Under the pieces are notes generated by a model. That model was not told the origin of the DNA and made no database searches. It worked only from the letters and a program-made list of their open reading frames with translations. This document shows positions 11,737 to 62,897 of a stretch of DNA of 64,000 bases, one piece after another. A program made the translations under genes and the position numbers. The DNA comes from a phage. Location: sequence record OZ346151.1; one strand, written 5' to 3'. Position 1 is the stretch's first letter. Each line of letters starts with the position of its first letter.

Positions 11737-11764
11737 TTGACAACAAGGTTAATCATGGTATTAT
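11737..11764 (+). promoter_or_regulatory. sigma70 promoter (TTGACA-N16-TATTAT)
   Basis: TTGACA 11737-11742, -10 11759-11764. Confidence 0.6.
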
Positions 11765-11814
11765 TACCCTACAAGGTGAACAACACCGCACTAACCAGTA
11801 AAGAGGATAAATTT

Positions 11815-12012
11815 ATGAACGCATACGGGATCAAAGTACGTCGCAACACTCGCCAGGTGGTCACCAATCAAGTGATTTGCCGGGTGGATGTAACCATCAA
11901 CAACGGGCAAGGCCTTTATAAATTTCGTCGCGGTCATAGCTATACCCTGCAACAGCTTAATCGTTGCGCCCTGACAAAAGGTCAGATCAACCACTGGTTT
12001 AATAAAAAATAA
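11815..12012 (+). CDS. hypothetical protein
   Basis: ORF track 11737..12012 starts at TTG inside the promoter; ATG 11815 preceded by AGAGGA. Confidence 0.45.
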   Translation: MNAYGIKVRRNTRQVVTNQVICRVDVTINNGQGLYKFRRGHSYTLQQLNRCALTKGQINHWFNKK

Positions 12013-12015
12013 GTA

Positions 12016-12044
12016 TTGACATACAGTCAGACACCAAATACACT
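12016..12044 (+). promoter_or_regulatory. sigma70 promoter (TTGACA-N17-TACACT)
   Basis: TTGACA 12016-12021, -10 12039-12044. Confidence 0.55.
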
Positions 12045-12076
12045 AAAAGCACAAAAGACACTAAGAGGATAAAATC

Positions 12077-12262
12077 ATGAAAACCACTACCTTTAATTTT
12101 GATAATGCAGACTTTTCTTTTTCTGATGTCAAGAACTGCCGCCGTGATCGTGGATTTTACAAGGCTTATAATCTGGTGGGCCTGGACGATGACAATAATT
12201 TGCACGAAGTAGCTGAGATCCAGCTTGACAGATTGGACGGGAAAGTACTAAAAACTTATTGA
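12077..12262 (+). CDS. hypothetical protein
   Basis: 61 aa, RBS AGAGGA upstream. Confidence 0.45.
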   Translation: MKTTTFNFDNADFSFSDVKNCRRDRGFYKAYNLVGLDDDNNLHEVAEIQLDRLDGKVLKTY

Positions 12263-12263
12263 G

Positions 12264-12309
12264 TTTATTTTTAGATGGCCTTGACACCAGGGCCATCAAT
12301 AAAGTAAAC
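12264..12309 (+). repeat. Repeated promoter/stem-loop element, copy 1
   Basis: TTATTTTTAGATGGCC-TTGACACCAG-GGCCATCAATAAAGTAAAC; stem GATGGCC/GGCCATC (12274-12297) encloses the -35 hexamer TTGACA. Confidence 0.6.
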
Positions 12310-12342
12310 TAACCACAGTTGAGCGGAAAAGGAGGCTTAAAG

Positions 12343-12462
12343 ATGAGCACTACACGCCAGCACACAAAGGTAACCATCATCGTTTGCATCATTGGGTACA
12401 TCCTGGCGCAAATGTTGATGGGTAGCGCCAACGGTGTCGCAAAATTTTTCTTAAACTTTTAA
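12343..12462 (+). CDS. small hydrophobic peptide (39 aa), below ORF-track threshold
   Basis: ATG 12343 preceded by AAAGGAGG; MSTTRQHTKVTIIVCIIGYILAQMLMGSANGVAKFFLNF; stop abuts next promoter. Confidence 0.4.
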   Translation: MSTTRQHTKVTIIVCIIGYILAQMLMGSANGVAKFFLNF

Positions 12463-12490
12463 TTGACAAGCTAACTTAAATCGATATAAT
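12463..12490 (+). promoter_or_regulatory. consensus sigma70 promoter (TTGACA-N16-TATAAT)
   Basis: TTGACA 12463-12468, TATAAT 12485-12490; leader hairpin GGGAA-AAC-TTCCC at 12503-12515. Confidence 0.7.
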
Positions 12491-12541
12491 AAGCACATAA
12501 ACGGGAAAACTTCCCAGAACACACAAAAGGAGAAAAACACC

Positions 12542-12883
12542 ATGACTACTATGACCGCCTCAGAAAAAGCTATGCAGATCGCTGAACTGAAAAAACAGAT
12601 CGCAGACCTTGAGAATAAGATCGATAACTTTGAAATCGACGAGGACAAGTACGACGAAAACTATGATGAATGGTTAGACGAGATCTACGGCGAAATTATG
12701 ATCGGAAACATTTCTTTTCTTCCGTCGCGTATCCTCAAGGAGCTAGATCCTATCGCTTACCGCTGCGGATTTAGCGACTACATCGACAGCCTGGATATTG
12801 AGGACGATGAAGAATACCAGGAATTACAGACAGAGTTAGAAGAAGCAAAAGAAGAGCTTGCGGAGCTGGAAGAAAACGAGTAA
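12542..12883 (+). CDS. hypothetical acidic coiled-coil protein
   Basis: 113 aa, D/E-rich; RBS AAGGAG. Confidence 0.5.
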   Translation: MTTMTASEKAMQIAELKKQIADLENKIDNFEIDEDKYDENYDEWLDEIYGEIMIGNISFLPSRILKELDPIAYRCGFSDYIDSLDIEDDEEYQELQTELEEAKEELAELEENE

Positions 12884-12884
12884 G

Positions 12885-12930
12885 CTTATTTTTAGATGGC
12901 CTTGACACCAGGGCCATCAATAAAGTAAAC
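12885..12930 (+). repeat. Repeated promoter/stem-loop element, copy 2
   Basis: Near-identical to copy 1; stem GATGGCC/GGCCATC 12895-12918. Confidence 0.6.
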
Positions 12931-12972
12931 TTTATACTGTTAACACTGAACTAATGCATAGGAGTTAAAACC

Positions 12973-13218
12973 ATGGCAGCACTAATCACCAAATATTATG
13001 CCCCTACCAACACCAAAAGCGCCCGTATCATGGTAAAAGGCTTCGGACGTAAAAAGGTGTACACCTGGGATTATGCCTTAGACACGGAAGACAACTACAC
13101 CAACGCAATGACCGATTTTATTAATGAACTAAATAAGCAGATCTTGACAAGTTATAAAGTGACCGATATTGCTTATATAGGTGAAGGCGGGATCTGTTTT
13201 GTAGGCATTGTGAAATAG
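12973..13218 (+). CDS. hypothetical protein
   Basis: 81 aa, RBS TAGGAG. Confidence 0.45.
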   Translation: MAALITKYYAPTNTKSARIMVKGFGRKKVYTWDYALDTEDNYTNAMTDFINELNKQILTSYKVTDIAYIGEGGICFVGIVK

Positions 13219-13292
13219 TTATTTTTTCGGTGGTCCTGGTTGCAGGGCCATCTATAAAGATAATTTATTAACACCATGAAAGGAGAAAGTAC

Positions 13293-13646
13293 ATGATCAG
13301 CGGGGCAAGTTTTATTATTGGCGCTATTGCTACGGCTTTAATTGTAAATAAGATCCAGGATAAAAAGGAAAGAGGAAGTACCGCCCTTGCAGAATATCCA
13401 TTTTGGGCATTCAACGATAACGAAGATTATATTATAAAGTATAAAAATAAAGAAGGTGACCAAGTAACACCGCGACCGATCCCGGCTTACAAAATGCAGG
13501 AAACACTATACCGCCTGGAGGCGGGTGGCGCAAAAATTGTAGACTTTTGGGGATACGACCACACAGATCAGGAAGTTATAAAGCGCCGTATCCGGGCTAT
13601 TCAGGCCAATATTGAAGTTAGCAAGGGGGGAATATATGAAAATTAA
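13293..13646 (+). CDS. hypothetical membrane-anchored protein
   Basis: 117 aa, N-terminal TM; RBS AAAGGAG. Confidence 0.45.
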   Translation: MISGASFIIGAIATALIVNKIQDKKERGSTALAEYPFWAFNDNEDYIIKYKNKEGDQVTPRPIPAYKMQETLYRLEAGGAKIVDFWGYDHTDQEVIKRRIRAIQANIEVSKGGIYEN

Positions 13647-13833
13647 TTTCGAGAAAATTGTAAAGCGCCCTCATGATTCCGAAGAGCTGCCAGAACGCCG
13701 CCAGCGTAACAATAAACTGAATAAGCCAAAAAGGTTTGGGAAGATCTGGCGTAATCATTATGATCGTAAATTGCCCGGCCTACTTTTGGAACGTGAACGA
13801 CAGGCAGAACGATACCGCCATAAAGACAAATAA
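13636..13833 (+). CDS. hypothetical basic protein
   Basis: ORF track 13612..13833; ATG 13636 after AAGGGGGG. Confidence 0.4.
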   Translation: MKINFEKIVKRPHDSEELPERRQRNNKLNKPKRFGKIWRNHYDRKLPGLLLERERQAERYRHKDK

Positions 13834-13841
13834 CAACCAAC

Positions 13842-13868
13842 GCCCCGCCATTGTGCGGGGCTTTTTAT
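13842..13868 (+). terminator. rho-independent terminator
   Basis: CGCCCCGC-CATTGT-GCGGGGC followed by TTTTT. Confidence 0.7.
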
Positions 13869-13990
13869 TTCTATCCTACGAATAGCGCCCCTGGTTGGCC
13901 CTGTAAGCGCCAAAAAGGCCCCCACCTATGCAATCGCCCCTTTAACCTGAAAACATCGCCCAGGGCCGTTTCATGGCGTTAAAAATATCA

Positions 13991-14018
13991 TTGACATCGT
14001 CAACAGGTTAGCTATACT
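13991..14018 (+). promoter_or_regulatory. sigma70 promoter (TTGACA-N16-TATACT)
   Basis: TTGACA 13991-13996, TATACT 14013-14018. Confidence 0.65.
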
Positions 14019-14050
14019 AACCACATCAAAGAGAGAAAGGAGTAAACGCC

Positions 14051-14311
14051 ATGCGTAAATTAAAAAATTTTGATAAAGTTGATGTTATCCTGAATAATTT
14101 TTACTACTGCAACAACAAGGCTATTTGGTGGCGTGATAGTTCCACCGATAAAGTCAGGGCGCGCTTTCTTCAGGGGCACTGGCAAGGCCGCCCAGTGATT
14201 AAAATCATGGGGCAATCGGTAGCGTTTAAAAATTGCCGCCGTGTTGATGACGTTGAGGAGATTTTAAACATTTTGCGCCACAATAATTTAAAAAATAGTG
14301 TTGACAAGTAA
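14051..14311 (+). CDS. hypothetical protein
   Basis: 86 aa, RBS AAAGGAG. Confidence 0.45.
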   Translation: MRKLKNFDKVDVILNNFYYCNNKAIWWRDSSTDKVRARFLQGHWQGRPVIKIMGQSVAFKNCRRVDDVEEILNILRHNNLKNSVDK

Positions 14312-14328
14312 GCCTCAATAAGTATACT
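14301..14328 (+). promoter_or_regulatory. sigma70 promoter (TTGACA-N16-TATACT)
   Basis: TTGACA 14301-14306, TATACT 14323-14328; leader hairpin GGCGGGAA-AAC-TTCCCGCC 14339-14357. Confidence 0.65.
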
Positions 14329-14385
14329 TAAACACACAGGCGGGAAAACTTCCCGCCACTAACAAAGAAAATAGGAGAAAATATC

Positions 14386-15009
14386 ATGACCACCGTTAAC
14401 ATTACCGCAGGTTACAATTTATCTTTCGACGTGCTGACCGACGAACAAAAAGAAAAAGCCGTTGAAATGGTCCGCGAAAGAGAAGAACACAGCGGGGATA
14501 ACTTTTTTGCAGAAAGTGTAATTGAATACTATAAAGAATATGTTTTTCCAGAGTATGGCCTTGAAGATACCGAAGTACATTGGTCAGGCTTTTGGTGCCA
14601 GGGTGACGGCGCGTCAATCAGTGCTGAAAACGTGGATTTAGAAAAATTTTTACGTAAAGTAAAGGCCCTGACCAAGTTCCGATCAATTCGTCACTTGTTC
14701 GGCACAATGCACGATGGCGAGTTATCAGCCAGTGTTGAACGCGACAAGTACAGCCATTACAGCCATGAAAACACTGTAAGCGGGTACATTGATACCACTT
14801 GGCTAGATCTGACCGCCAAACAAGAAAACAAAGTGGAAGACCTGGAAGAACTGATCACCGAGACGGTACGGGAGCTATCCCGCAAGGTTTACGTAGACCT
14901 GGAGGAGGCCTATCTAGAACAGTTCACCGCAGAAAACCTGATCGGCCTTATCGAGGCCAATGATTGGCGGTTTGATGTCGATGAATATGGTGAGATGACT
15001 TTTTCATAA
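14386..15009 (+). CDS. hypothetical acidic protein
   Basis: 207 aa, strongly D/E-rich; RBS TAGGAG. Confidence 0.5.
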   Translation: MTTVNITAGYNLSFDVLTDEQKEKAVEMVREREEHSGDNFFAESVIEYYKEYVFPEYGLEDTEVHWSGFWCQGDGASISAENVDLEKFLRKVKALTKFRSIRHLFGTMHDGELSASVERDKYSHYSHENTVSGYIDTTWLDLTAKQENKVEDLEELITETVRELSRKVYVDLEEAYLEQFTAENLIGLIEANDWRFDVDEYGEMTFS

Positions 15010-15017
15010 ATAAAGTG

Positions 15018-15045
15018 TTGCAATAACCTAAAAACCTGCTATATT
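15018..15045 (+). promoter_or_regulatory. sigma70 promoter (TTGCAA-N16-TATATT)
   Basis: Leader hairpin GGGGCAA-GACG-TTTGCCCC 15056-15074 then CA-rich tract and RBS. Confidence 0.5.
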
Positions 15046-15099
15046 AAAACTCAAGGGGGCAAGACGTTTGCCCCAACACAAAACAAAGAGGATAACATC

Positions 15100-15480
15100 A
15101 TGAAAAACACTACCAAGGCTATTGACACCGTTATGTTTAACCTGGTTACATTCCGTGAAGATATGAAAGATCTTCCTCGTGAAACAGTGTGCGACCATAT
15201 CGAAAACTATCGCAAACTAATCAAAGAGTTGCCTTTAAAACGTGATCAATATGCGGCTAACGCCATGCTTAATGCCATGATCAAAAAGATGATCCAGTGT
15301 GATTTAACCCTGGCCTATGATTATGCAGGCGGTCGTTTTGCAGTATACAATCAGCCCGTGCCCGGTATGAGCACCACCGAAGAATTGCACGCGCTCAATC
15401 TAAAACAAGACGTGTGGGATAGTATGCCTCGCGTGGTGGTATGGGTAGAAAGCGGAAAGATTTACGGCGATAATTTTTAA
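15100..15480 (+). CDS. hypothetical protein
   Basis: 126 aa, RBS AGAGGA. Confidence 0.5.
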   Translation: MKNTTKAIDTVMFNLVTFREDMKDLPRETVCDHIENYRKLIKELPLKRDQYAANAMLNAMIKKMIQCDLTLAYDYAGGRFAVYNQPVPGMSTTEELHALNLKQDVWDSMPRVVVWVESGKIYGDNF

Positions 15481-15490
15481 TCAGGTAGCA

Positions 15491-15515
15491 GGCGGCATAT
15501 TTGCCGCCTTATTGT
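15491..15515 (+). terminator. putative rho-independent terminator
   Basis: GGCGGCA-TATT-TGCCGCC followed by TTATTGTT. Confidence 0.5.
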
Positions 15516-15544
15516 TAATCAGAACTGTAAAAGAGGTACATAGA

Positions 15545-15916
15545 ATGGAATTTATTATTTTGGCTGTATTGGTTGCCTTGTTTAACGCCTGGATCGCTGG
15601 CAAGATGGGAAGATCCGCCTTTTTATGGTTTATTATATCTATTTTCCTGGGGGTGGTTGCAACTATTGTATTGGTTATCCTTGCAATTGTTGACAAGGGG
15701 AATAATAGAAAGGGTAAAGTATTTTCAGACCTGTACGACGCTCAAACGTTTGTCAACGCCTATTATAGTGATCTTCCAGTCTCCCTACGTTGCAGCCTTG
15801 CACAACAGGTTTTCGATGAAGCTAAAACCAGAGATCACGCCCATGAGATTTGTTTAACTGAGGCGGATCGCCTATTTGAGAGGAATAGAAAATATGTGGA
15901 CCAGCCGTTTAAATAA
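15545..15916 (+). CDS. hypothetical membrane protein (two TM helices)
   Basis: ORF track 15512..15916; ATG 15545 after AAGAGG. Confidence 0.45.
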   Translation: MEFIILAVLVALFNAWIAGKMGRSAFLWFIISIFLGVVATIVLVILAIVDKGNNRKGKVFSDLYDAQTFVNAYYSDLPVSLRCSLAQQVFDEAKTRDHAHEICLTEADRLFERNRKYVDQPFK

Positions 15917-16026
15917 TGCCACGTTAATTAACCCCTTTAGTAAAGATTTGAAGCCAGCCGCCTGGCGGGATGGATTCAATAACGAACGCTTTATTTTCAG
16001 GCCTGATCTTGAGGAATTTTATAACA

Positions 16027-16254
16027 ATGGATCGAACAACAGCGGAGATAATTTTTCTTGTGGTGTGTGTCGTGATAGGACTCCTGGGGGCCATTGTAGA
16101 TCGCGTCACTACTACCAGAAGGAAAGGGGAGACGATGACAACCAAGGATAAGCCCCGCACCGATAAGGTGCGCCGTGTTATGGTATGGCTTGAGATCATC
16201 GCCCTTGAAATATTGTTAGGCGTAGGGATGTATTTTATCTCTGTAAGTAACTGA
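16027..16254 (+). CDS. hypothetical membrane protein
   Basis: ORF track 15970..16254; hydrophobic segments; start uncertain. Confidence 0.4.
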   Translation: MDRTTAEIIFLVVCVVIGLLGAIVDRVTTTRRKGETMTTKDKPRTDKVRRVMVWLEIIALEILLGVGMYFISVSN

Positions 16255-16258
16255 TAAC

Positions 16259-16290
16259 GGCCCCCGATCCCTGGGGGGCCTAACTTTTTT
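16259..16290 (+). terminator. rho-independent terminator
   Basis: GGCCCCC-GATCCCTG-GGGGGCC followed by TAACTTTTTT. Confidence 0.7.
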
Positions 16291-16313
16291 CAAAAAATTT
16301 TTCTTCCGGGGTG

Positions 16314-16341
16314 TTGCAATCCGGTCCTGAATATGGATAAT
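16314..16341 (+). promoter_or_regulatory. sigma70 promoter (TTGCAA-N16-GATAAT)
   Basis: Leader hairpin GGGGA-AACA-TCCCC 16352-16365, then CCAACACAAAAACC and RBS. Confidence 0.5.
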
Positions 16342-16397
16342 AACAATCAACGGGGAAACATCCCCACCAACACAAAAACCAGAAAGGAGAAACAAAA

Positions 16398-16598
16398 ATG
16401 AGCAACAATATCCGCGTTATTAACTTCAAAAAAGAAGAAAAAATTGCCGTGCTGATTGACGGTCAAGAAATCTTCAAGGGCGACTATGAAGATCATCAAA
16501 CGGCGATTAGTATCACTCGCGTGATTGGTTACCATAATTTTTACCCCCAAGGCGCTGAGGCGGCGGTTAAACGAATCAAAGAGATTGTAGGCCTGTAA
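16398..16598 (+). CDS. hypothetical protein
   Basis: 66 aa, RBS AAAGGAG. Confidence 0.45.
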   Translation: MSNNIRVINFKKEEKIAVLIDGQEIFKGDYEDHQTAISITRVIGYHNFYPQGAEAAVKRIKEIVGL

Positions 16599-16600
16599 AA

Positions 16601-16646
16601 TTTATTTTTAGATGGCCTTGACTCTAGGGCCATCAATAAAGTAAAT
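16601..16646 (+). repeat. Repeated promoter/stem-loop element, copy 3
   Basis: Stem GATGGCC/GGCCATC 16611-16634 conserved; loop differs from copies 1 and 2 (TTGACTCTAG). Confidence 0.6.
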
Positions 16647-16685
16647 TTAAACCCTGTTAAAATACCACGCAGTTAACAAGGAGTA

Positions 16686-16991
16686 ATGATCATGTTTATC
16701 CAGGCTAATAATCTTTATTTCTTTGATGGTCAGATCGTAGATGGTGTGGAAGTGGAGATCACTGGGTGCCCTGGTGGTCAGGCTATGACTTTTCGGAATA
16801 ATGCCTTTGATGATTCTCATATCGTTATGAGAATGGAAGTTACAAAGCTGGACGACAAGAAAACGCTCATTGACTATTCCGTGAAAGATCATCCAGACTA
16901 CCACATGATCTATGGTGATTTGTGCATTGTTGACCGTGACAAGGTGGGCGGCATTGTGATCGCTATTGTGAACGATGTTTTCTCTGTATAG
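16686..16991 (+). CDS. hypothetical protein
   Basis: 101 aa, RBS AAGGAG. Confidence 0.5.
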   Translation: MIMFIQANNLYFFDGQIVDGVEVEITGCPGGQAMTFRNNAFDDSHIVMRMEVTKLDDKKTLIDYSVKDHPDYHMIYGDLCIVDRDKVGGIVIAIVNDVFSV

Positions 16992-17049
16992 TTCCGGCAA
17001 ATGATGCAAAATAAGGCCCCTAGCAGGGCCTACAGCGATATAATCACAT

Positions 17050-17085
17050 AAAGGCCATGCAACCGCATGGCCTTTATTATTTTGG
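17050..17085 (+). terminator. rho-independent terminator
   Basis: AAAGGCCATGC-AACC-GCATGGCCTTT followed by ATTATTTT. Confidence 0.7.
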
Positions 17086-17130
17086 CGTTACAGCGGCCCC
17101 AAGGCGCTTAAAAATTTTTTAAAGAAGTAC

Positions 17131-17158
17131 TTGCATCAAGCCCTACAATATGGATAAT
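17131..17158 (+). promoter_or_regulatory. sigma70 promoter (TTGCAT-N16-GATAAT)
   Basis: TTGCAT 17131-17136, GATAAT 17153-17158. Confidence 0.5.
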
Positions 17159-17216
17159 AGGACGTGTCAGGGGGGGGAGGCCCCAATCATTAACCGGATA
17201 GATAGGAGTTAAAACC

Positions 17217-17501
17217 ATGGCTATTGTTACCGCTGGCGATGTAGTAGAAATGGAAGCAAAATACTTAAAAGCGGGTATGCATATCCTACGCAACGATCTT
17301 GAACTGGTCCTGACAATGGTTGACTATAACCCAGGGCAAGATTATCCAAGTGTTGACTACTTTTTTGAGTATGTTGATGAAGAGTTGAAAGAGGATGAGG
17401 CCTATTGCGGTGAGTTCTGCAACTTCTTTTGTCCTGATGAGGTTGTAAAGGTTATCTATCAACCTGGCGTAGCTTTCCCGCTGCACGCTATCAATAAATA
17501 A
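17217..17501 (+). CDS. hypothetical protein
   Basis: 94 aa, RBS TAGGAG. Confidence 0.5.
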   Translation: MAIVTAGDVVEMEAKYLKAGMHILRNDLELVLTMVDYNPGQDYPSVDYFFEYVDEELKEDEAYCGEFCNFFCPDEVVKVIYQPGVAFPLHAINK

Positions 17502-17505
17502 ACCT

Positions 17506-17530
17506 GGCGGGGGCCTTTTCGGCCCCCGCC
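17506..17530 (+). terminator. strong GC hairpin (terminator-like; no U-tract)
   Basis: GGCGGGGGCC-TTTTC-GGCCCCCGCC, perfect 10-bp stem right after stop codon. Confidence 0.45.
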
Positions 17531-17564
17531 TGAAATTATGAAAAATAAAAAGAGGCAAACTATC

Positions 17565-17798
17565 ATGATGGAACAAATTAAACGCGCTGAGGCTATTAAT
17601 GGCAATGTAATCTATTTTGTCAGCAAAAACGAAAAAGGCGTACCCTATGCGGCGGTAATAGTACAGCCTGACGGCGATTATTGGTGCACTGTGTACGGCG
17701 CTTATTCTTTTGGGCGTCCAGTGCATGATAAAATTTTGAAAGTAGCGAACCCTACCGGGAAAAATATTACAGCAGAAAAATTTTTTGAAAAAAGTTGA
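17565..17798 (+). CDS. hypothetical protein
   Basis: ORF track 17538..17798; ATG 17565 after AAGAGG. Confidence 0.45.
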   Translation: MMEQIKRAEAINGNVIYFVSKNEKGVPYAAVIVQPDGDYWCTVYGAYSFGRPVHDKILKVANPTGKNITAEKFFEKS

Positions 17799-17822
17799 CA
17801 TGACCATATAAAACTGTAGTAT
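17795..17822 (+). promoter_or_regulatory. sigma70 promoter (TTGACA-N16-TAGTAT)
   Basis: TTGACA 17795-17800; leader hairpin GGGGC-AACAA-GCCCC 17834-17848. Confidence 0.5.
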
Positions 17823-17874
17823 ATAAATCAAAGGGGGCAACAAGCCCCACCAACCACAAAGAGGATAAAAAATC

Positions 17875-18054
17875 ATGGCTATTATTGCAAAGACCGAGAT
17901 CGTAGGCTTAGATTCTATTCTCCTCGCATATGAGGAAGCTATAGAAATGTATGTGGTTTCCTATGGTGAGTATATCCGTGAATATGAATCTATTGATCTA
18001 GCTTTTGAATGTTATATTCGCCAGGTTAATAAAGCGTACGATGATTATCGTTAA
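17875..18054 (+). CDS. small protein (59 aa), below ORF-track threshold
   Basis: ATG 17875 preceded by AGAGGA; MAIIAKTEIVGLDSILLAYEEAIEMYVVSYGEYIREYESIDLAFECYIRQVNKAYDDYR. Confidence 0.45.
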   Translation: MAIIAKTEIVGLDSILLAYEEAIEMYVVSYGEYIREYESIDLAFECYIRQVNKAYDDYR

Positions 18055-18145
18055 AATAGTTTGACAACAAACAACCATCTAACAAAGCATAATACATAAG
18101 GTGGTAGAATGATCCGCCACCCGGAACAAAGAAGAGGTAAACACC

Positions 18146-18391
18146 ATGAAAAGCAATAAAGGTTATAACGGTTACAAAAACAAAACTCATTGGAATGTAA
18201 GCCTTTGGATTAATAACGATGAGTCATTGTACCGGTTGGCCCAAGGATTTATTAACGCTAATGCTAATCGTAATGATGCGGCGCGGGATATGATGCTTTT
18301 TCTGGAGCTAACCGGACAAGATAAGACCCCGGACGGCTTCAAGTACAGCACTACGGCGATCCGTGCCGCGATGGTTGGAATGAAACACTAA
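18146..18391 (+). CDS. hypothetical protein
   Basis: 81 aa, RBS AAGAGG; last gene of rightward array. Confidence 0.5.
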   Translation: MKSNKGYNGYKNKTHWNVSLWINNDESLYRLAQGFINANANRNDAARDMMLFLELTGQDKTPDGFKYSTTAIRAAMVGMKH

Positions 18392-19524
18392 AAGCACATA
18401 GCCGCCAGATCTCAGAATTTACGTACGCTCACCAGTCTATAGCCTGCTAAGTATTTATTCCAACCATAGAATAACGGAATAGTCAATACCTGCATAAAAT
18501 AATTATTCGTGTAAACTGCATAACATAAATCGGCTAGGATGTCAACATTTTTCGTAAACAGCTCGAAATTATAACGGTGAGTTATAATAAACAGAGAAAT
18601 CTTTAGTCGTCTAATGTTTACTGTACATTACTATACTGACTGGAATCATTAGATGACTAAGAGAAAGATAAGAAATCATTAACAATGCAATTGTTTTATT
18701 CGTAACAATAAGGCAACTATGCAAACGGATGGCATGGCGCGACGGAGTCGCGACATAATATAAAAGCAGTAACCATCACCCCCGTGATAGTTTGTCTGCA
18801 AACTATTAATCAGATCATAGTTGCCTTGTATTTAGTTAATCATGACATAACAAGCAAGGCAACTATAGATCTGCTAATAGTTGCCCTGCTTTTATATTAT
18901 GTCATAGATTATTAGCCTGTTAATTGTTAGTCAGTCAAATCAACAACGTTATCATTTCAGTCTTTATTGTTGTTGATCGTTATTGTTATCATGCAAACGA
19001 ATGGCATGGCTTATCATTTTTGAGTAAACAATCTATACGTGAACAGTGAGGCATGCAATAGTAAGGGCGGGAATAATGAGAGTGTAAACTGTCAAGGGTA
19101 ATGTCAATTATATCAATCGTGTCAGTTATGTCACCATTATGTCAGCAGAGTTTTTCTCCTCTTTGTCAAGTGCTGCATGCCCACACAAATAGTAAGAAAT
19201 ATAATTGTTATGTGCGTAAACAGTAACTCATGTTATCAATCCCTGTATGTATCGCCAGTGGTGCGCATAATGGGTATTATGTTAAATTGCCCGTAATGAT
19301 AATGGTTCTCACAATGATAGGTATTCTCATTCCCCCACACAAAATAGATTGCAAATGTTGTGCCACTATGTGAACGGCCTCACCTATTAATTTGCCTCAC
19401 TGCCTCGATATTTGAGAATTATCATAAGAATGAGAAGTATTCCCATTTCGTCCGCCTGGCAGCACTCCAGTCGCTACGGCTCAGAACAGGGCAGAATTGT
19501 GTCCATTCAGATATTTCTGTCTGG

Positions 19525-20732
19525 CTCTTCAGGTCTGTGTGGGAAAAGTCCACCTCTCTGGCGGGGCATGGGGTCATGACGGGAAAATTGCAGGTCAATT
19601 AAAAAATTTACGTGGTGTATGAAGCGCTCTTCAGGTAAGGCATGTATTATGGGATGAAACCCTCTTCAGGCAATGATATTTGTGGGTGTGATATTTGCTG
19701 GAAAGCCAGATATGACGGGACTCCCGGCGGGGCAGGGGTAGTACAGACAGGGGAAATATGGAGGATGTGGTTAGGTGAATTGATCAGACAGGTAGAGTAT
19801 GGAATATGTTACAGGTATGTTAAATAGGGCGGCTGAATATCTGTAGGATTTGTGTGTAAAATCAAAGACTTAAGTGGTGTTGTGGTATTTTCTATAAATA
19901 ATTCAAGTTTAATAGGTAATATTTGTCTCTATTCGCTTTGTGTGGTAAACAGATTCAGATGAGATTGGTTTACAAGCGTATACATAATATACAAATTAAA
20001 GATACAAGAAACCCCCCTCCCCCTTCGGCTACCATTCACCTTTTCCTCTGACTGGTACTTAAACACTTATTCAGACTCTTCAGGTTATCACCCATATATC
20101 ATATGGCAGTGACTGGTGTCCTCCGGCCCCTCTTTCGTCACCCGTCCGCTTCGCCATGCTAATGCCATAGCCAATGGTTCGGTTGTTCACCCTGTTCACT
20201 CAGGTGTATCTCCATACCCCTTCAAAACGAAGAGAACAGAAAACCCGAATTACTCGGTAAAAGAAAAGAGAAGAACTTAATTTTATCAGGATAGGCAAGA
20301 ATGTCAAGGCATGACTGCTCACTAAACAAGCAAACAGTCATGTGTGGGAGGTAAGTGATTGTGGTGGTAGGAAATTTAGTTGAAAGATGTGTTATAGGTG
20401 CTTCCAGCACTTTAGCCGGGCAGCTAATTGTGTGTCAGTCCAGCGGTTCATCCTCTACTTCACTGAAATCAATGTTCATGGTCTCTTCCCAACCATCGAT
20501 CTCAGCACAAGAGTGGAGTTCTTTAGGGTTTACTCCTAAAGCCTCAGCAACAGAGTCTATATTTAACACCTCTGGCAGGTATGATTCATCAAATTCAAGG
20601 TAAATCAGGCCACGAGTGTTGTCAGCTCCACCAAATATTTCTATCTTCATAAAATCTCCTCTGGAAATGAGAGTGTGAACAGGGTTTTATACGTCCCAAT
20701 GCACAGGAATTATGCACGTTTTCCTCTTCAGG
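19525..20732 (+). repeat. Five dispersed copies of the 9-mer CTCTTCAGG in a noncoding region
   Basis: Copies at 19525-19533, 19627-19635, 19662-19670, 20076-20084, 20724-20732, all same strand. Confidence 0.5.
20435..20650 (-). CDS. hypothetical protein
   Basis: 71 aa; last ORF of leftward array. Confidence 0.4.
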   Translation of the reverse strand: MKIEIFGGADNTRGLIYLEFDESYLPEVLNIDSVAEALGVNPKELHSCAEIDGWEETMNIDFSEVEDEPLD

Positions 20733-20771
20733 CCATGCTTTAGCATGAGGAACCTGTGTGGGCTCGGTGCT

Positions 20772-20984
20772 TCATAGTCTACCACCTCTGAACTCTTCGT
20801 GCTCAGGCATAATAGAGAACCAGATATCTACGATGTCCTCCCACGTCAGGTCATCAGCCTCAGGATCTGTCTGGGACGAAGATGAAGAGTCCTCAGAATC
20901 TAAGTTTTCCTCTTTAACTGGCTCATCCAAGGGACATATGGTCACTCCTTCGGATGTCTCTTCAGATGCATGTGTGTTGATCAT
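20772..20984 (-). CDS. hypothetical acidic protein
   Basis: 70 aa ORF. Confidence 0.35.
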   Translation of the reverse strand: MINTHASEETSEGVTICPLDEPVKEENLDSEDSSSSSQTDPEADDLTWEDIVDIWFSIMPEHEEFRGGRL

Positions 20985-21344
20985 GTTCCACCCGTGAGTA
21001 TTCCGGCAACAGCTGCTATGGACGTAATGATCATCAGGATCACCACTAAAACTTCGGACAATGTTCTCATTGTGTACTCCATATTCTACAAACTATGTGT
21101 GGATACTATCACTGGATCGGTAATGTGTCAACAGAAACGCCGCGAGGGTTTGGTTAAAATCCGAGCGTATGGTGATTTGGGTCAAAACGGACGTGCGTTC
21201 TCGCTACGCTCGAAAGAGAGATTTGTTTGTAGGAAGCTCTTAAACGCTCTGTAATGAGATTATCTGTCCAAGGTATGCAATCGTGCACCAGATAAAGAAA
21301 AGGACGCCACAGAGCGTCCTAGGTGTCTTAAATTTGATATTTTG

Positions 21345-36087: not shown

Positions 36088-36200
36088 AGATACTCCGCAT
36101 CACATTTAGGGCAATGCCAAATAAAATCGTCTAGTGCCTTGCACCAACGAAGATTACAACTACAGCCGCACTTGCAAATTTTATAAATACCTGATGACAT
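36084..36200 (-). CDS. small cysteine-rich peptide (38 aa), below ORF-track threshold
   Basis: ATG at 36200-36198; MSSGIYKICKCGCSCNLRWCKALDDFIWHCPKCDAEYL; stop overlaps nrdG start (ATGA). Confidence 0.35.
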   Translation of the reverse strand: MSSGIYKICKCGCSCNLRWCKALDDFIWHCPKCDAEYL

Positions 36201-62809: not shown

Positions 62810-62820
62810 AATAGTAAATA

Positions 62821-62897
62821 CTCCGCGTAGCTCAGCTTGGTAGAGCGCCTGATTTGGGATCAGGAGGTCGAGTGTTCGAATCACTCCGTGGAGACCA
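62821..62897 (+). tRNA. tRNA-Pro (anticodon TGG), CCA encoded
   Basis: Acceptor CTCCGCG/CGTGGAG (C1:G72 as in Pro tRNAs), anticodon loop TTTGGGA, T-loop TTCGAAT. Confidence 0.85.

What the first reader, a model, noticed from the sequence alone, without database searches (positions are those of the whole stretch)
11737..18145. Stereotyped early-gene expression cassette: consensus promoter, 5' GC hairpin, CA-rich tract, SD
At least seven genes (starts 12542, 14386, 15100, 16398, 17217, 17875, 18146) share the same leader plan: a near-consensus sigma70 promoter, a short perfect GC hairpin about 10-25 nt downstream of the -10 (for example GGCGGGAA-AAC-TTCCCGCC, GGGGCAA-GACG-TTTGCCCC, GGGGA-AACA-TCCCC), a CA-rich stretch (CAACACAAAA variants), then a strong Shine-Dalgarno. 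A 5'-terminal hairpin is a classic mRNA-stabilising device and CA-rich leaders enhance translation, so these genes appear built for maximal early expression.
Basis: partly seen in the sequence, partly recalled or inferred. Interest (0 to 1): 0.5.

Follow-up and report, generated by a model that had tools for sequence, protein, structure and literature searches.

The report
Phage promoter–hairpin–leader expression cassettes
A cluster of tiny genes in an rV5-like E. coli phage each carries the same compact control unit, a strong host-type promoter followed by a small GC hairpin at the predicted start of the mRNA, an A-rich leader and a ribosome-binding site; it is a real, conserved variant of regulatory cassettes already described in T4-like phages rather than something new.

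Summary
The window is an rV5-like phage (Vequintavirus, 92-96% identical to AlexBoehm and Murica). In 11.7-18.2 kb, seven to eight leaders on the + strand have the same plan: an AT-rich upstream tract, a sigma70-type -35/-10, a GC hairpin starting 10-12 nt after the -10, an A-rich tract poor in G and U, then a Shine-Dalgarno sequence and ATG. A rule-based scan finds 8 hits against 0.17 expected in shuffles.

The plan recurs in phi92-like and phAPEC8-like phages with different stem sequences but the same offset. Stems persist through compensatory changes, paired indels and one loop inversion. The 5' arm is always G-rich, and no U-tract follows.

I read the hairpin as a transcribed stem-loop 2-6 nt from the predicted mRNA 5' end. 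That fits protection from RppH and RNase E, as in the ompA and T7 gene-10 leaders. No start site, half-life or expression timing is mapped.

The closest known family is the PeSL (promoter-early stem-loop) cassettes of T4-like phages. As with PeSLs, three gene gain/loss junctions between relatives fall inside cassettes.

Verdict: a new variant of a known kind, of moderate interest. Two of the seven leaders are weaker, and "CA-rich" is better described as A-rich.

The parts
11737..11817 (+). Cassette 1 (weak): -35 11737-11742, -10 TATTAT 11759-11764, hairpin GGTG-AACAA-CACC 11775-11787, SD 11803-11807, ATG 11815
   Evidence: hairpin conserved in 13 relatives; folding z-score only -1.0
12463..12544 (+). 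Cassette 2: -35 TTGACA 12463-12468, -10 TATAAT 12485-12490 (12/12), hairpin GGGAA-AAC-TTCCC 12503-12515, A-rich tract 12516-12526, SD AAGGAG 12527-12532, ATG 12542
   Evidence: (z -1.8); equals rV5 predicted promoter P192
14301..14388 (+). Cassette 3: -35 14301-14306, -10 TATACT 14323-14328, hairpin GGCGGGAA-AAC-TTCCCGCC 14339-14357, SD 14373-14377, ATG 14386
   Evidence: (-14.6 kcal/mol, z -5.6); equals rV5 P185
15018..15102 (+). Cassette 4: -35 TTGCAA 15018-15023, -10 TATATT 15040-15045, hairpin GGGGCAA-GACGT-TTGCCCC 15056-15074, SD 15088-15092, ATG 15100
   Evidence: (z -3.75); six orthologous stem variants all pair, and A142 has the loop inverted
16314..16400 (+). Cassette 5: -35 TTGCAA 16314-16319, -10 GATAAT 16336-16341, hairpin GGGGA-AACA-TCCCC 16352-16365, SD 16384-16389, ATG 16398. 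A canonical terminator (16259-16280 plus T-run) lies just upstream.
   Evidence: (z -2.4)
17131..17219 (+). Cassette 6 (weaker): -35 TTGCAT 17131-17136, -10 GATAAT 17153-17158, G8-AGG-C4 hairpin 17170-17184, SD 17204-17208, ATG 17217. A canonical terminator (17048-17077) lies upstream.
   Evidence: not significant by folding in this genome (z +0.88), but a GGGGG-N3-4-CCCCC stem is present in relatives
17795..17877 (+). Cassette 7: -35 TTGACA 17795-17800, -10 TAGTAT 17817-17822, hairpin GGGGC-AACAA-GCCCC 17834-17848, SD 17861-17865, ATG 17875
   Evidence: (z -2.3); equals rV5 P174; its -35 is a recombination junction in SYGMH1 and 241Ecol014PP
18061..18148 (+). Cassette 8 (deviant): TTGACA 18061-18066, CATAAT 18088-18093 with a 21-nt spacer, imperfect phi92-type hairpin GGTGGTAG-AATG-ATCCGCCACC 18100-18121, SD 18134-18137, ATG 18146
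   Evidence: (z -2.1); relatives with a 4-nt shorter spacer have a 10-bp stem (-17.9 kcal/mol)
12016..12079 (+). Promoter in the same cluster without a hairpin (TTGACA-17-TACACT; ATG 12077), with an A/C-rich leader: an internal control
   Evidence: 0 kcal/mol
13991..14053 (+). Promoter in the same cluster without a downstream hairpin (TTGACA-16-TATACT; ATG 14051)
12262..12310 (+). Class-2 promoter/stem-loop element: T-run, 10-bp hairpin 12274-12297 carrying TTGACA, then TAAACT
   Evidence: annotated 'terminator' in Murica
12884..12931 (+). Class-2 element, hairpin 12895-12918. Left crossover partner for loss of the 12973 gene in phage 241Ecol014PP.
13219..13270 (+). Diverged class-2 element, hairpin 13229-13252. 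Right crossover partner in the same deletion.
16599..16647 (+). Class-2 element, hairpin 16611-16634

Best explanation
These are compact, self-contained expression cassettes for small ORFan (no known relatives or function) genes of an rV5-like phage. Each has an AT-rich UP-like tract, a strong sigma70 promoter, a GC stem-loop encoded at about +3/+6 to +16/+24, an unstructured A-rich G/U-poor spacer of 11-19 nt, a strong SD and an ATG.

The stem-loop is transcribed and folds at the extreme 5' end of the cassette's own mRNA. There it most likely hinders RppH and the 5'-end-dependent entry of RNase E. The G/U-poor spacer offers few RNase E sites, cannot pair with the SD, and leaves a landing pad for the 30S ribosomal subunit. 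This is the same logic as the ompA and T7 gene-10 leaders.

Because the cassettes are repeated, they also serve as homology patches at which ORFans are exchanged or deleted, as described for PeSLs.

Shown: the architecture, its significance, its conservation, the maintenance of the stem, the strand asymmetry, the absence of a U-tract, and junctions inside cassettes.

Inferred: the transcription start, stabilisation as the function, and early timing.
For: Existence and significance:
- 8 cassette hits against 0.17 expected in shuffles, all on the + strand of 11.5-18.4 kb.

Coupling to the promoter:
- Taking the best hairpin and the best promoter independently in each of 73 leaders (window, phi92, alia, nepoznato), 49 had both a promoter matching at least 8 of 12 positions and a hairpin. 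The hairpin starts 6-15 nt after the -10 in 41 of those 49, with a mode of 10-12.
- Among 35 unique hairpins from 17 loci, 30 start 9-12 nt after the -10.

RNA-level pairing:
- Orthologues keep a stem through inserted C-G or G-C pairs, A-U to G.U to G-C series, and a loop inversion.
- Real 5'/3' arm pairs give 7.3 contiguous pairs. Arms permuted among cassettes give 2.5, with a maximum of 3.8 in 2000 permutations.
- On a model-fitted alignment, 97.9% of cells pair, against 77% in shuffles and at most 73% when partners are slid. Six of 8 pairs change on both sides.
- G.T juxtapositions, which are G.U on the + strand but C.A on the - strand, recur inside stems.

Orientation:
- The G:C ratio in 5' arms is 147:33.

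Not a sense terminator:
- T is 14.6% in the 8 nt after the stem.
- None of the hairpins is called on the + strand by the terminator scan.
- Cassettes 5 and 6 directly follow canonical terminators, so a second terminator would be redundant.

Leader:
- The predicted structure is the 5' hairpin only, and the rest is open.
- The tract is 58% A and 8% T.

Precedent:
- 5' secondary structure stabilises E. coli mRNAs because RppH and RNase E need single-stranded 5' ends (PMC3997798).
- The T7 gene-10 5' stem-loop raised reporter output fourfold (PMC2254391).

Shuffling:
- Junctions fall at 17800 (in a -35), at 18098 (between the -10 and the stem), and between the class-2 elements at 12935 and 13243.
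Against: - No transcription start site is mapped. If initiation were a few nucleotides upstream of the prediction, 5-6 unpaired nt would remain (this applies to cassette 2). From memory of the ompA work, that length abolishes protection.
- RppH inactivation affects only about 10% of E. coli mRNAs (PMC3997798).
- Several stems are weak: GGTG -4.8 and GGGAA -5.5 kcal/mol. Individual folding z-scores are modest.
- Some relatives carry stem-breaking single substitutions (A142 for cassette 5, bov25_3 for cassette 3, Murica for cassette 7).
- Two promoters in the same cluster do without a hairpin.
- Perfect palindromes can be maintained by template-switch mutation at the DNA level, so compensatory change is not proof of selection on RNA.
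- The covariation counts mix paralogues, orthologues and both strands on a model-fitted alignment.
Confidence: 0.45

Rival explanations
1. Attenuator or terminator for read-through from the upstream gene, which is the published PeSL model. The hairpin stops or damps RNA polymerase arriving from upstream promoters, so that each gene is driven mainly by its own promoter.
For: - PeSL stem-loops of RB49/phi1 lowered downstream lacZ as strongly as rrnB T1. One PeSL subclass has the stem-loop downstream of the -10 (PMC2839356).
- Five of the eight cassettes have no other terminator between them and the upstream gene.
- Annotators of phage HdK5 labelled the cassette-7 hairpin a terminator.
Against: - No U-tract: 14.6% T after the stem across 35 unique hairpins. 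None passes the + strand terminator scan.
- The hairpin lies inside the cassette's own transcript, so an efficient terminator would choke its own gene.
- Cassettes 5 and 6 already follow canonical terminators.
- The fixed 10-12 nt offset from the -10 is unnecessary for this role. In the T4-like phages PST and nt-1 the stem-loop sits upstream of the promoter.
Confidence: 0.15
2. Recognition site for a trans-acting regulator. Either a phage RNA-binding protein or nuclease acts on all these leaders for temporal shut-off or antitermination, or a DNA-binding repressor uses the inverted repeat at +4 to +22 as an operator.
For: - There are many copies in one regulon-like cluster.
- The position overlaps the classic operator location.
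- In phi92-like and phAPEC8-like phages the loops are fairly uniform (ATAG, ATGG, TGG), as are the flanks (TATCAC(A/G)TAG).
Against: - In Vequintavirus both stems and loops differ between cassettes and between orthologues: AAC, AACA, AACAA, GACGT, GCTAA, ACA, TGT. One loop is inverted without loss of the element.
- Complementarity is what is conserved, not half-site sequence.
- There is no boxA/boxB-like consensus and no Rfam family.
Confidence: 0.12
3. Effect at the transcription level. A purine-rich initial transcribed sequence (the G-rich 5' arm) aids promoter escape, or the nascent hairpin sets a pause just before the SD that helps the first ribosome couple to RNA polymerase.
For: - A strict G-rich-first orientation (147 G to 33 C).
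- A fixed distance to the -10.
- The hairpin ends 17-32 nt before the ATG.
Against: - No consensus pause motif is evident 10-12 nt after the stems (inspection).
- The link between escape efficiency and purine content is recalled from memory and was not tested here.
- It does not explain why complementarity is maintained.
Confidence: 0.1
4. Little or no role in expression. The palindromes are passengers or recombination substrates of a repeated mobile cassette. They spread by duplication and gene conversion and are kept perfect by template-switch repair.
For: - Three gene gain/loss or replacement junctions fall inside cassettes.
- The loop inversion is typical of palindrome template switching.
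- The hairpin is the most variable part of the otherwise invariant cassette 4.
Against: - The strand asymmetry (G-rich 5' arm, G.U-type pairs only in the + sense), the tight offset and the U-poor 3' flank are not expected of a purely DNA-level palindrome.
- The architecture is retained across two subfamilies with unrelated stem sequences.
Confidence: 0.1
5. Terminators for the opposite (-) strand that insulate the cluster from antisense transcription coming from the convergent 21-58 kb unit.
For: The scan calls five of the hairpins terminator-like on the - strand, because the region between the -10 and the stem is A-rich on the + strand. 4-5 of the 8 following bases are T on the - strand for six of the eight window cassettes.
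Against: - The T-tracts are interrupted (for example TGTGTGTTTA).
- In the phi92-like and phAPEC8-like cassettes the flank is only 45% T-equivalent.
- G.T pairs on the + strand become C.A mismatches on the - strand.
- There are no - strand genes here, and the convergent unit has its own terminator-like hairpin near 21.3 kb.
Confidence: 0.05

Closest known systems
PeSLs (promoter-early stem-loops) of T4-like phages RB49/phi1, PST and nt-1 (Arbiol et al. 2010, PMC2839356; Comeau et al. 2014, PMC4122927)
   Same: - An AT-rich upstream tract, a consensus sigma70 promoter, a stem-loop with poly-G followed by poly-C, then SD and start codon.
- Many copies concentrated in ORFan-rich plastic regions.
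- Found at indel and replacement junctions. One RB49/phi1 subclass has the stem-loop after the -10.
- The window also holds the other PeSL-like placements: over the -35 (class-2 elements), and between the -35 and -10.
   Different: - A different phage lineage (Vequintavirinae/Stephanstirmvirinae, not T4-like).
- Here the stem-loop is stereotyped at 10-12 nt after the -10, which puts it inside the predicted transcript. In RB49/phi1 the common positions are within the promoter, and in PST and nt-1 just upstream of it.
- PeSL stem-loops are described as effective terminators. These lack any U-tract, and two follow real terminators.
5'-terminal stem-loop mRNA stabilisers: ompA, papA and the T7 gene-10 (phi10) leader
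   Same: A stable hairpin of arbitrary sequence within a few nucleotides of the mRNA 5' end, followed by an unstructured spacer and a strong SD. T7 gene 10 is a phage example (PMC3997798, PMC2254391).
   Different: - Those elements are experimentally mapped and tested. Here the 5' end is only predicted.
- The T7 leader is made by T7 RNA polymerase on a late gene. Here it is a multi-copy family behind host-type promoters on putative early ORFans.
Promoter-coupled terminators in bacteria (Fletcher et al. 2026 preprint, 10.64898/2026.08.19.745784)
   Same: A terminator-type hairpin and a promoter share one short intergenic stretch. The class-2 elements here, with the hairpin over the -35, resemble that layout.
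   Different: In that work the hairpin forms the -35, the T-tract is the spacer, and the upstream transcript ends 8-11 bp before the next start. The cassettes in this finding have the hairpin after the start and no T-tract.
Lambda-type nut sites (boxA/boxB)
   Same: A short stem-loop in the leader RNA downstream of early promoters.
   Different: There is no conserved loop, no boxA-like motif, and the stem sequence is variable. No N-like factor was sought.

Membership tests
PeSL cassette (T4-like phages) | Near-consensus sigma70 -35/-10 with an AT-rich tract upstream | tested here: met
   9-12 of 12 consensus matches for six cassettes and 8 of 12 for cassette 6. Cassette 8 has a perfect TTGACA and CATAAT but a 21-nt spacer. 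64-88% AT in the 25 nt upstream of the -35, with A5-6T5-6 runs.
PeSL cassette (T4-like phages) | Adjacent stable stem-loop, typically poly-G then poly-C | tested here: met
   G:C in 5' arms is 147:33 over 35 unique hairpins. Energies range from -4.8 to -14.6 kcal/mol.
PeSL cassette (T4-like phages) | SD and start codon of an ORFan at the 3' end, and many copies in a plastic region | tested here: met
   The downstream proteins match only PHROG families of unknown function.
PeSL cassette (T4-like phages) | Cassettes mark gene insertion, deletion or replacement junctions | tested here: met
   Junctions at 17800, 18098 and 12935/13243, with a chimeric element in 241Ecol014PP. Two other indels, at 12215-12221 and 16984-17004, are not at cassettes.
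PeSL cassette (T4-like phages) | The stem-loop acts as a transcription terminator or attenuator | not testable with these tools
   The sequence argues against it: no U-tract. In vitro transcription or Term-seq is needed.
PeSL cassette (T4-like phages) | The host genome is a T4-like myovirus | tested here: not met
   The window is a Vequintavirus. This makes it an analogue or parallel, not the same lineage.
5'-terminal stem-loop mRNA stabiliser (ompA / T7 gene 10 type) | Stem-loop within about 0-4 unpaired nt of the transcript 5' end | tested here: inconclusive
   The predicted start, 7-8 nt after the -10 at a pyrimidine-purine step, leaves about 3 nt unpaired in cassettes 4, 5 and 7 and 2-6 nt in the others. 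No start site has been mapped.
5'-terminal stem-loop mRNA stabiliser (ompA / T7 gene 10 type) | Structure matters rather than sequence | tested here: met
   Pairing is kept while the sequence changes.
5'-terminal stem-loop mRNA stabiliser (ompA / T7 gene 10 type) | The hairpin lengthens mRNA half-life in an RppH/RNase E-dependent way | not testable with these tools
   Requires rifampicin chase experiments in wild-type, rppH-deletion and rne 5'-sensor mutant hosts.
Intrinsic (rho-independent) terminator, sense strand | GC hairpin immediately followed by a U-rich tract | tested here: not met
   0-1 T in the 8 nt after seven of the eight window hairpins. 14.6% T over all unique hairpins. Not called on the + strand.
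Intrinsic terminator, antisense strand | GC hairpin followed by a U-rich tract on the - strand | tested here: inconclusive
   Five are called by the permissive scan, but the tracts are interrupted and are not conserved in the phi92-like and phAPEC8-like cassettes.
Lambda nut (boxA/boxB) antitermination site | Conserved boxB loop and stem, and a boxA motif | tested here: not met
   Loops and stems vary between cassettes and between orthologues. No Rfam hit.
Curated RNA families (Rfam 15) | A match at or above the gathering score | tested here: not met
   The only hit is a chance-level one: Clostridium-PBP, 30 bits against a 94-bit cut-off.

The most novel reading that the evidence does not exclude
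The hairpins are the shared handle of a phage-wide post-transcriptional regulon. A phage- or host-encoded factor would read the 5' stem-loop of all these ORFan mRNAs, for example to time their shut-off or to shield them from a host RNA-targeting defence. The same palindromes would be the preferred break and rejoin sites that make the ORFan cluster hyper-plastic across Vequintavirinae and Stephanstirmvirinae.
Probability: 0.12. Interest if true: 0.6.

Novelty: new variant of a known kind. Interest (0 to 1): 0.35.

Why it matters
rV5-like and phi92-like phages are widely used therapy and biocontrol candidates, yet the regulation of their roughly 100 small ORFans is essentially unstudied.

The analysis gives three practical things:
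- A defined, portable unit (UP-like tract, promoter, 5' hairpin, A-rich leader, SD) that explains how these genes can be expressed hard from host RNA polymerase.
- A handle for annotating transcription units. Several hairpins are currently mis-annotated as terminators.
- A ready-made part for synthetic biology.

It also extends the PeSL idea, in which regulatory cassettes double as recombination modules, beyond T4-like phages.

It would not overturn current understanding, because each ingredient has precedent.

Tried and rejected
1. N4-type hairpin promoters. Rejected: the hairpins sit at a fixed distance downstream of complete sigma70 promoters rather than forming the promoter.
2. RNase III sites. 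Rejected: the stems are only 4-10 bp.
3. RNAalifold on a MAFFT alignment of 24 phi92-like and phAPEC8-like leaders gave no structure, because arms of unequal length were misaligned. A MAFFT alignment of cassette-4 orthologues was likewise unusable because of homopolymer ambiguity. I therefore used loop-anchored counts and an alignment fitted to a covariance model.
4. The 27-nt covariance model is too short to serve as a census tool. In the window it also picks up ordinary terminators at E-values above 0.3.
5. An automatic test for wobble against A.C mismatches by stem extension found almost nothing, because the outer pairs are too short. The G.U evidence rests.
6. An IMG/VR pattern scan for cassette-4 variants returned a single contig, so orthologues came from GenBank phage records.
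7. Literature searches found no transcription-start or RNA-seq data for Vequintavirus. The phi92 genome paper is not held.
8. Rfam: no family matched.
9. Pfam and PHROGs on the downstream proteins gave no function, except a T7 gp1.1-like protein and DUF7249.

Full report
**What the window is.** Region 11.7-18.4 kb is 92-96% identical to many Vequintavirus (rV5-like) coliphages, including AlexBoehm, isim, Murica and JES2013. In the window it is a run of about 25 very small + strand genes. The run ends in a roughly 3-kb stretch without convincing ORFs, and beyond that lies a long convergent - strand unit. In phage phi92 the equivalent cluster abuts the right terminal repeat. The encoded proteins match only PHROG families of unknown function. 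The exceptions are a T7 gp1.1-like protein and a DUF7249 protein. 'Early' is therefore an inference from gene size, promoter type and position, not a measurement.

**Checking the observation.** It also adds a weak eighth before ATG 11815.
- Five leaders are clean (ATG 12542, 14386, 15100, 16398, 17875). Their promoters match 9-12 of 12 consensus positions with a 16-bp spacer. A perfect stem of 5-8 bp starts 10-12 nt after the -10. A spacer of 11-18 nt and a strong SD follow.
- The 17217 leader has a poorer promoter (TTGCAT/GATAAT). Its G8...C4 hairpin is not significant by folding in this genome (z +0.88), but orthologues have a clean GGGGG-N3-4-CCCCC stem.
- The 18146 leader has a 21-bp promoter spacer and a mismatched stem here. 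AlexBoehm and A142 have a 17-bp spacer, and A142 a 10-bp stem.
- A fixed rule (promoter, hairpin 8-15 nt after the -10, SD+ATG within 45 nt) finds 8 hits on the + strand of 11.5-18.4 kb; one is the true terminator at 15490. It finds none on the - strand there. Dinucleotide shuffles of the region give a mean of 0.17 and a maximum of 2. The whole shuffled window, both strands, gives 1.1.
- The rest of the 64-kb window contains no further cassette of this type.
- The 'CA-rich' tract is 58% A, 25% C, 10% G and 8% T, against a background of 29/22/21/29. It is A-rich and depleted of G and U, with C at about background.
- Upstream of each -35 there is a 64-88% AT tract with A5-6T5-6 runs that resembles an UP element.

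**The plan is family-wide.** In phi92 and alia (Justusliebigvirus) and in nepoznato (Phapecoctavirus), most genes of the corresponding cluster are preceded by the same layout. It reads TTGACA-N16/17-TAnnnT, then about 10 nt (often TATCAC(A/G)TAG), then a GC hairpin, then a purine-rich leader and the ATG. The hairpins include GGGCGGCA-ATAG-TGCCGCTC, GGCGGGAAA-TGG-TTTCCCGCC, AGGCGGTGG-AATAGC-CCACCGCCT and GGGGAGAA-TAG-TTCTCCCC.
- I took the best promoter and the best hairpin independently in each of 73 leaders. In 49 of them both a promoter matching at least 8 of 12 positions and a hairpin were found. The hairpin starts 6-15 nt after the -10 in 41 of those 49, with a sharp mode at 10-12.
- Across 17 loci there are 35 unique hairpins. 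Thirty start 9-12 nt after the -10. Their 5' arms hold 147 G against 33 C. The 8 nt after the stem are 14.6% T.

**Is the pairing maintained?**
- Among 14 Vequintavirus genomes the cassette-4 hairpin occurs in six forms. These include an inserted C-G pair, an extra G-C pair, A-U to G.U changes, and in A142 an exact inversion of the loop. All six fold to at least 7 bp.
- Cassette 5 has three loop/stem forms, including an added G-C pair. Cassettes 6-8 behave similarly.
- A few genomes carry single stem-breaking substitutions.
- With hairpins anchored at the loop, real arm pairs give 7.3 contiguous pairs. Permuting the 3' arms among cassettes gives 2.5, with a maximum of 3.8 in 2000 permutations.
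- A small covariance model built from 11 equal-length seeds aligned 110 matches, of which 60 are distinct. On that alignment 97.9% of cells pair, against 77% in shuffles (0 of 500 reach the observed value) and 49-73% when partners are slid. Six of 8 pairs change on both sides. The covariation score is 0.55, against 0.20 in shuffles and at most 0.10 in slid controls.
- Caveats: the alignment is fitted to the model, it mixes paralogues, orthologues and both strands, and palindromes can also be repaired by template switching at the DNA level.
- G.U-type pairs (G.T in the + sense) recur at several stem positions. They form A-U, G.U, G-C series. This favours the + strand RNA as the selected molecule.

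**What the hairpin is not.**
- It is not a sense-strand intrinsic terminator. No U-tract follows it, and none of the hairpins is called on the + strand by the scan.
- Cassettes 5 and 6 sit directly behind canonical terminators (16259-16280 and 17048-17077, both also listed for rV5). A second terminator there would be redundant.
- Five hairpins are called terminator-like on the - strand, because the stretch between the -10 and the stem is A-rich. Those T-tracts are interrupted. The flank is only 45% T-equivalent in the phi92-like and phAPEC8-like cassettes. The G.T pairs would become C.A mismatches on that strand.
- No Rfam family matches.
- A sequence-specific operator or boxB-like site is unlikely for Vequintavirus, because stems and loops differ freely and only complementarity is kept.

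**Most likely mechanism.** E. coli RNA polymerase usually starts 7-8 nt after the -10 at a purine preceded by a pyrimidine. This rule is my own knowledge.
- Applied here, the starts fall at the A of TCAA/TCAAA in cassettes 4, 5 and 7, and at CA steps in the others. That leaves about 3 nt (range 2-6) unpaired before the stem.
- The stem ends 17-32 nt before the ATG, just outside a 30S footprint.
- The predicted leader structure is the 5' hairpin alone. Everything downstream is open.
- RppH and the 5' sensor of RNase E both need single-stranded 5' ends. This is the accepted explanation for stabilisation by 5' stem-loops in ompA, papA and bla fusions (PMC3997798).
- The T7 gene-10 leader is a phage example, and its stem-loop quadrupled reporter yield (PMC2254391).
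- A U-poor spacer also offers few RNase E sites. That inference rests on the enzyme's recalled preference for AU-rich single strands.
- I therefore favour a transcribed 5'-proximal protective stem-loop plus an open, A-rich ribosome landing zone, with confidence 0.45. The architecture is shown. The start site, the effect on half-life and the timing are inferred.

**Relation to known systems.** The closest described family is the PeSLs of the T4-like phages RB49 and phi1. A PeSL has an AT-rich tract, a consensus sigma70 promoter, a poly-G/poly-C stem-loop in one of five positions (one of them downstream of the -10), then SD and ATG. PeSLs are concentrated in ORFan-rich regions and mediate modular shuffling (PMC2839356). 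In PST and nt-1 the stem-loop lies just upstream of the promoter (PMC4122927).
- The window shows the same features. It also shows the other placements: a repeated class-2 element whose 10-bp hairpin carries the -35 (12274-12297, 12895-12918, 16611-16634, and a diverged copy at 13229-13252), and hairpins between the -35 and -10 in several - strand promoters.
- Shuffling is visible. Phage 241Ecol014PP lacks the 12973 gene exactly between two class-2 elements and has a chimeric element at the junction. SYGMH1 and 241Ecol014PP diverge from the window at the -35 of cassette 7. In SYGMH1 that -35 is joined to a cassette-8-type promoter with a different hairpin and gene. slur12 and HdK5 diverge between the -10 and the stem of cassette 8. 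Two other indels are not at cassettes.
- There are three differences from PeSLs: a different phage lineage, a stereotyped position inside the predicted transcript, and no terminator-like 3' flank.
- The rV5 genome paper lists several of these promoters but does not mention the hairpins. I found no description of the cassette for rV5-like or phi92-like phages in the searchable literature. The phi92 and PVP-SE1 genome papers were not available, so prior mention cannot be excluded.

**Verdict.** The finding is real, statistically solid and conserved. The element is best filed as a new variant of a known kind: a PeSL-like cassette with a T7-gene-10/ompA-like 5' leader stem-loop. Interest is moderate at 0.35. 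It is useful for annotation, where several hairpins are currently labelled terminators. It is also a testable case of mRNA-end protection and cassette-mediated ORFan exchange in a therapeutically relevant phage group.

Noticed in passing
window 12262-12310, 12884-12931, 16599-16647; diverged copy 13219-13270: A second repeat: a T-run, then a 10-bp hairpin (GATGGCCTTG-ACAC-CAGGGCCATC) that itself carries a TTGACA, then TAAACT 18 nt later. It sits immediately after stop codons. No U-tract follows on either strand, yet Murica annotates it as a terminator. Phage 241Ecol014PP has lost the 12973 gene exactly between two copies, leaving a chimeric element.
   Followed up: partly
window 18061-18093: The promoter of the 18146 gene has a 21-nt spacer here and in Murica and rV5_ev168, but 17 nt in AlexBoehm and A142 (a 4-nt indel, AAAC-type repeat). 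This copy may be weak or inactive.
   Followed up: partly
window 12215-12221: All compared relatives have about 690 bp more here. The window's 61-aa ORF (12077-12262) is a fusion of the 5' part of one 132-aa gene with the 3' end of the next. The breakpoint lies in coding sequence with a roughly 7-nt overlap, not at a cassette.
   Followed up: partly
window 16984-17004: Murica, AlexBoehm, rV5_ev168, Phage 203 and others carry an extra 116-aa gene (about 365 bp) here. It is absent from the window, A142, SYGMH1, WM, bov25_3 and naam.
   Followed up: partly
window 18400-21300: About 3 kb without convincing ORFs. It contains at least six copies of CTCTTCAGG, two copies of ATGCAAACGRATGGCATGGC, and direct and inverted repeats of AAGGCAACTAT type at 18.7-18.9 kb, which may mark an origin, packaging site or terminal region. 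Relatives have 4-6 further small genes after the 18146 gene that this window lacks. One IMG/VR contig (L011) shares the stretch at 86-96% identity.
   Followed up: partly
window - strand leaders of genes ending at 36200, 52729, 38099 and 43604; + strand leader of 4119: Other strong promoters in the window have short inverted repeats between the -35 and -10, over the -35, over the -10, or starting 2 nt after the -10. Promoter-associated hairpins are therefore general in this genome, though only the 11.7-18.2 kb cluster has the stereotyped position after the predicted start.
   Followed up: no
L004 (Campylobacter phage A142) 4299-4325, orthologue of window 15056-15074: The cassette-4 hairpin is present as its exact reverse complement: same stem, loop flipped from GACGT to ACGTC. 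This is a signature of palindrome inversion or template switching.
   Followed up: yes
L003 and L005, orthologues of window ~13990: rV5_ev168 and Phage 203 have a 23-nt insertion that duplicates a TTGACA just upstream of the 14051 promoter, giving tandem -35 elements.
   Followed up: no
window 62085-62897: A cluster of seven tRNA genes (Arg, Tyr, Ser, Thr, Met, Pro). One is a 99-nt call with a 4-base anticodon (tRNA-???, 62554-62652).
   Followed up: no
window 13636-13833: The 65-aa product matches Pfam Phage_1_1 (T7 gene 1.1 protein, E 2.6e-11). It is the only protein in the cluster with a named family apart from DUF7249 (18146-18391).
   Followed up: no
GenBank records MG0656xx (L004 and others): About 20 records named 'Campylobacter phage' are 92-95% identical to this E. 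coli-type Vequintavirus. They are flagged UNVERIFIED and unannotated, so the host label is doubtful.
   Followed up: no
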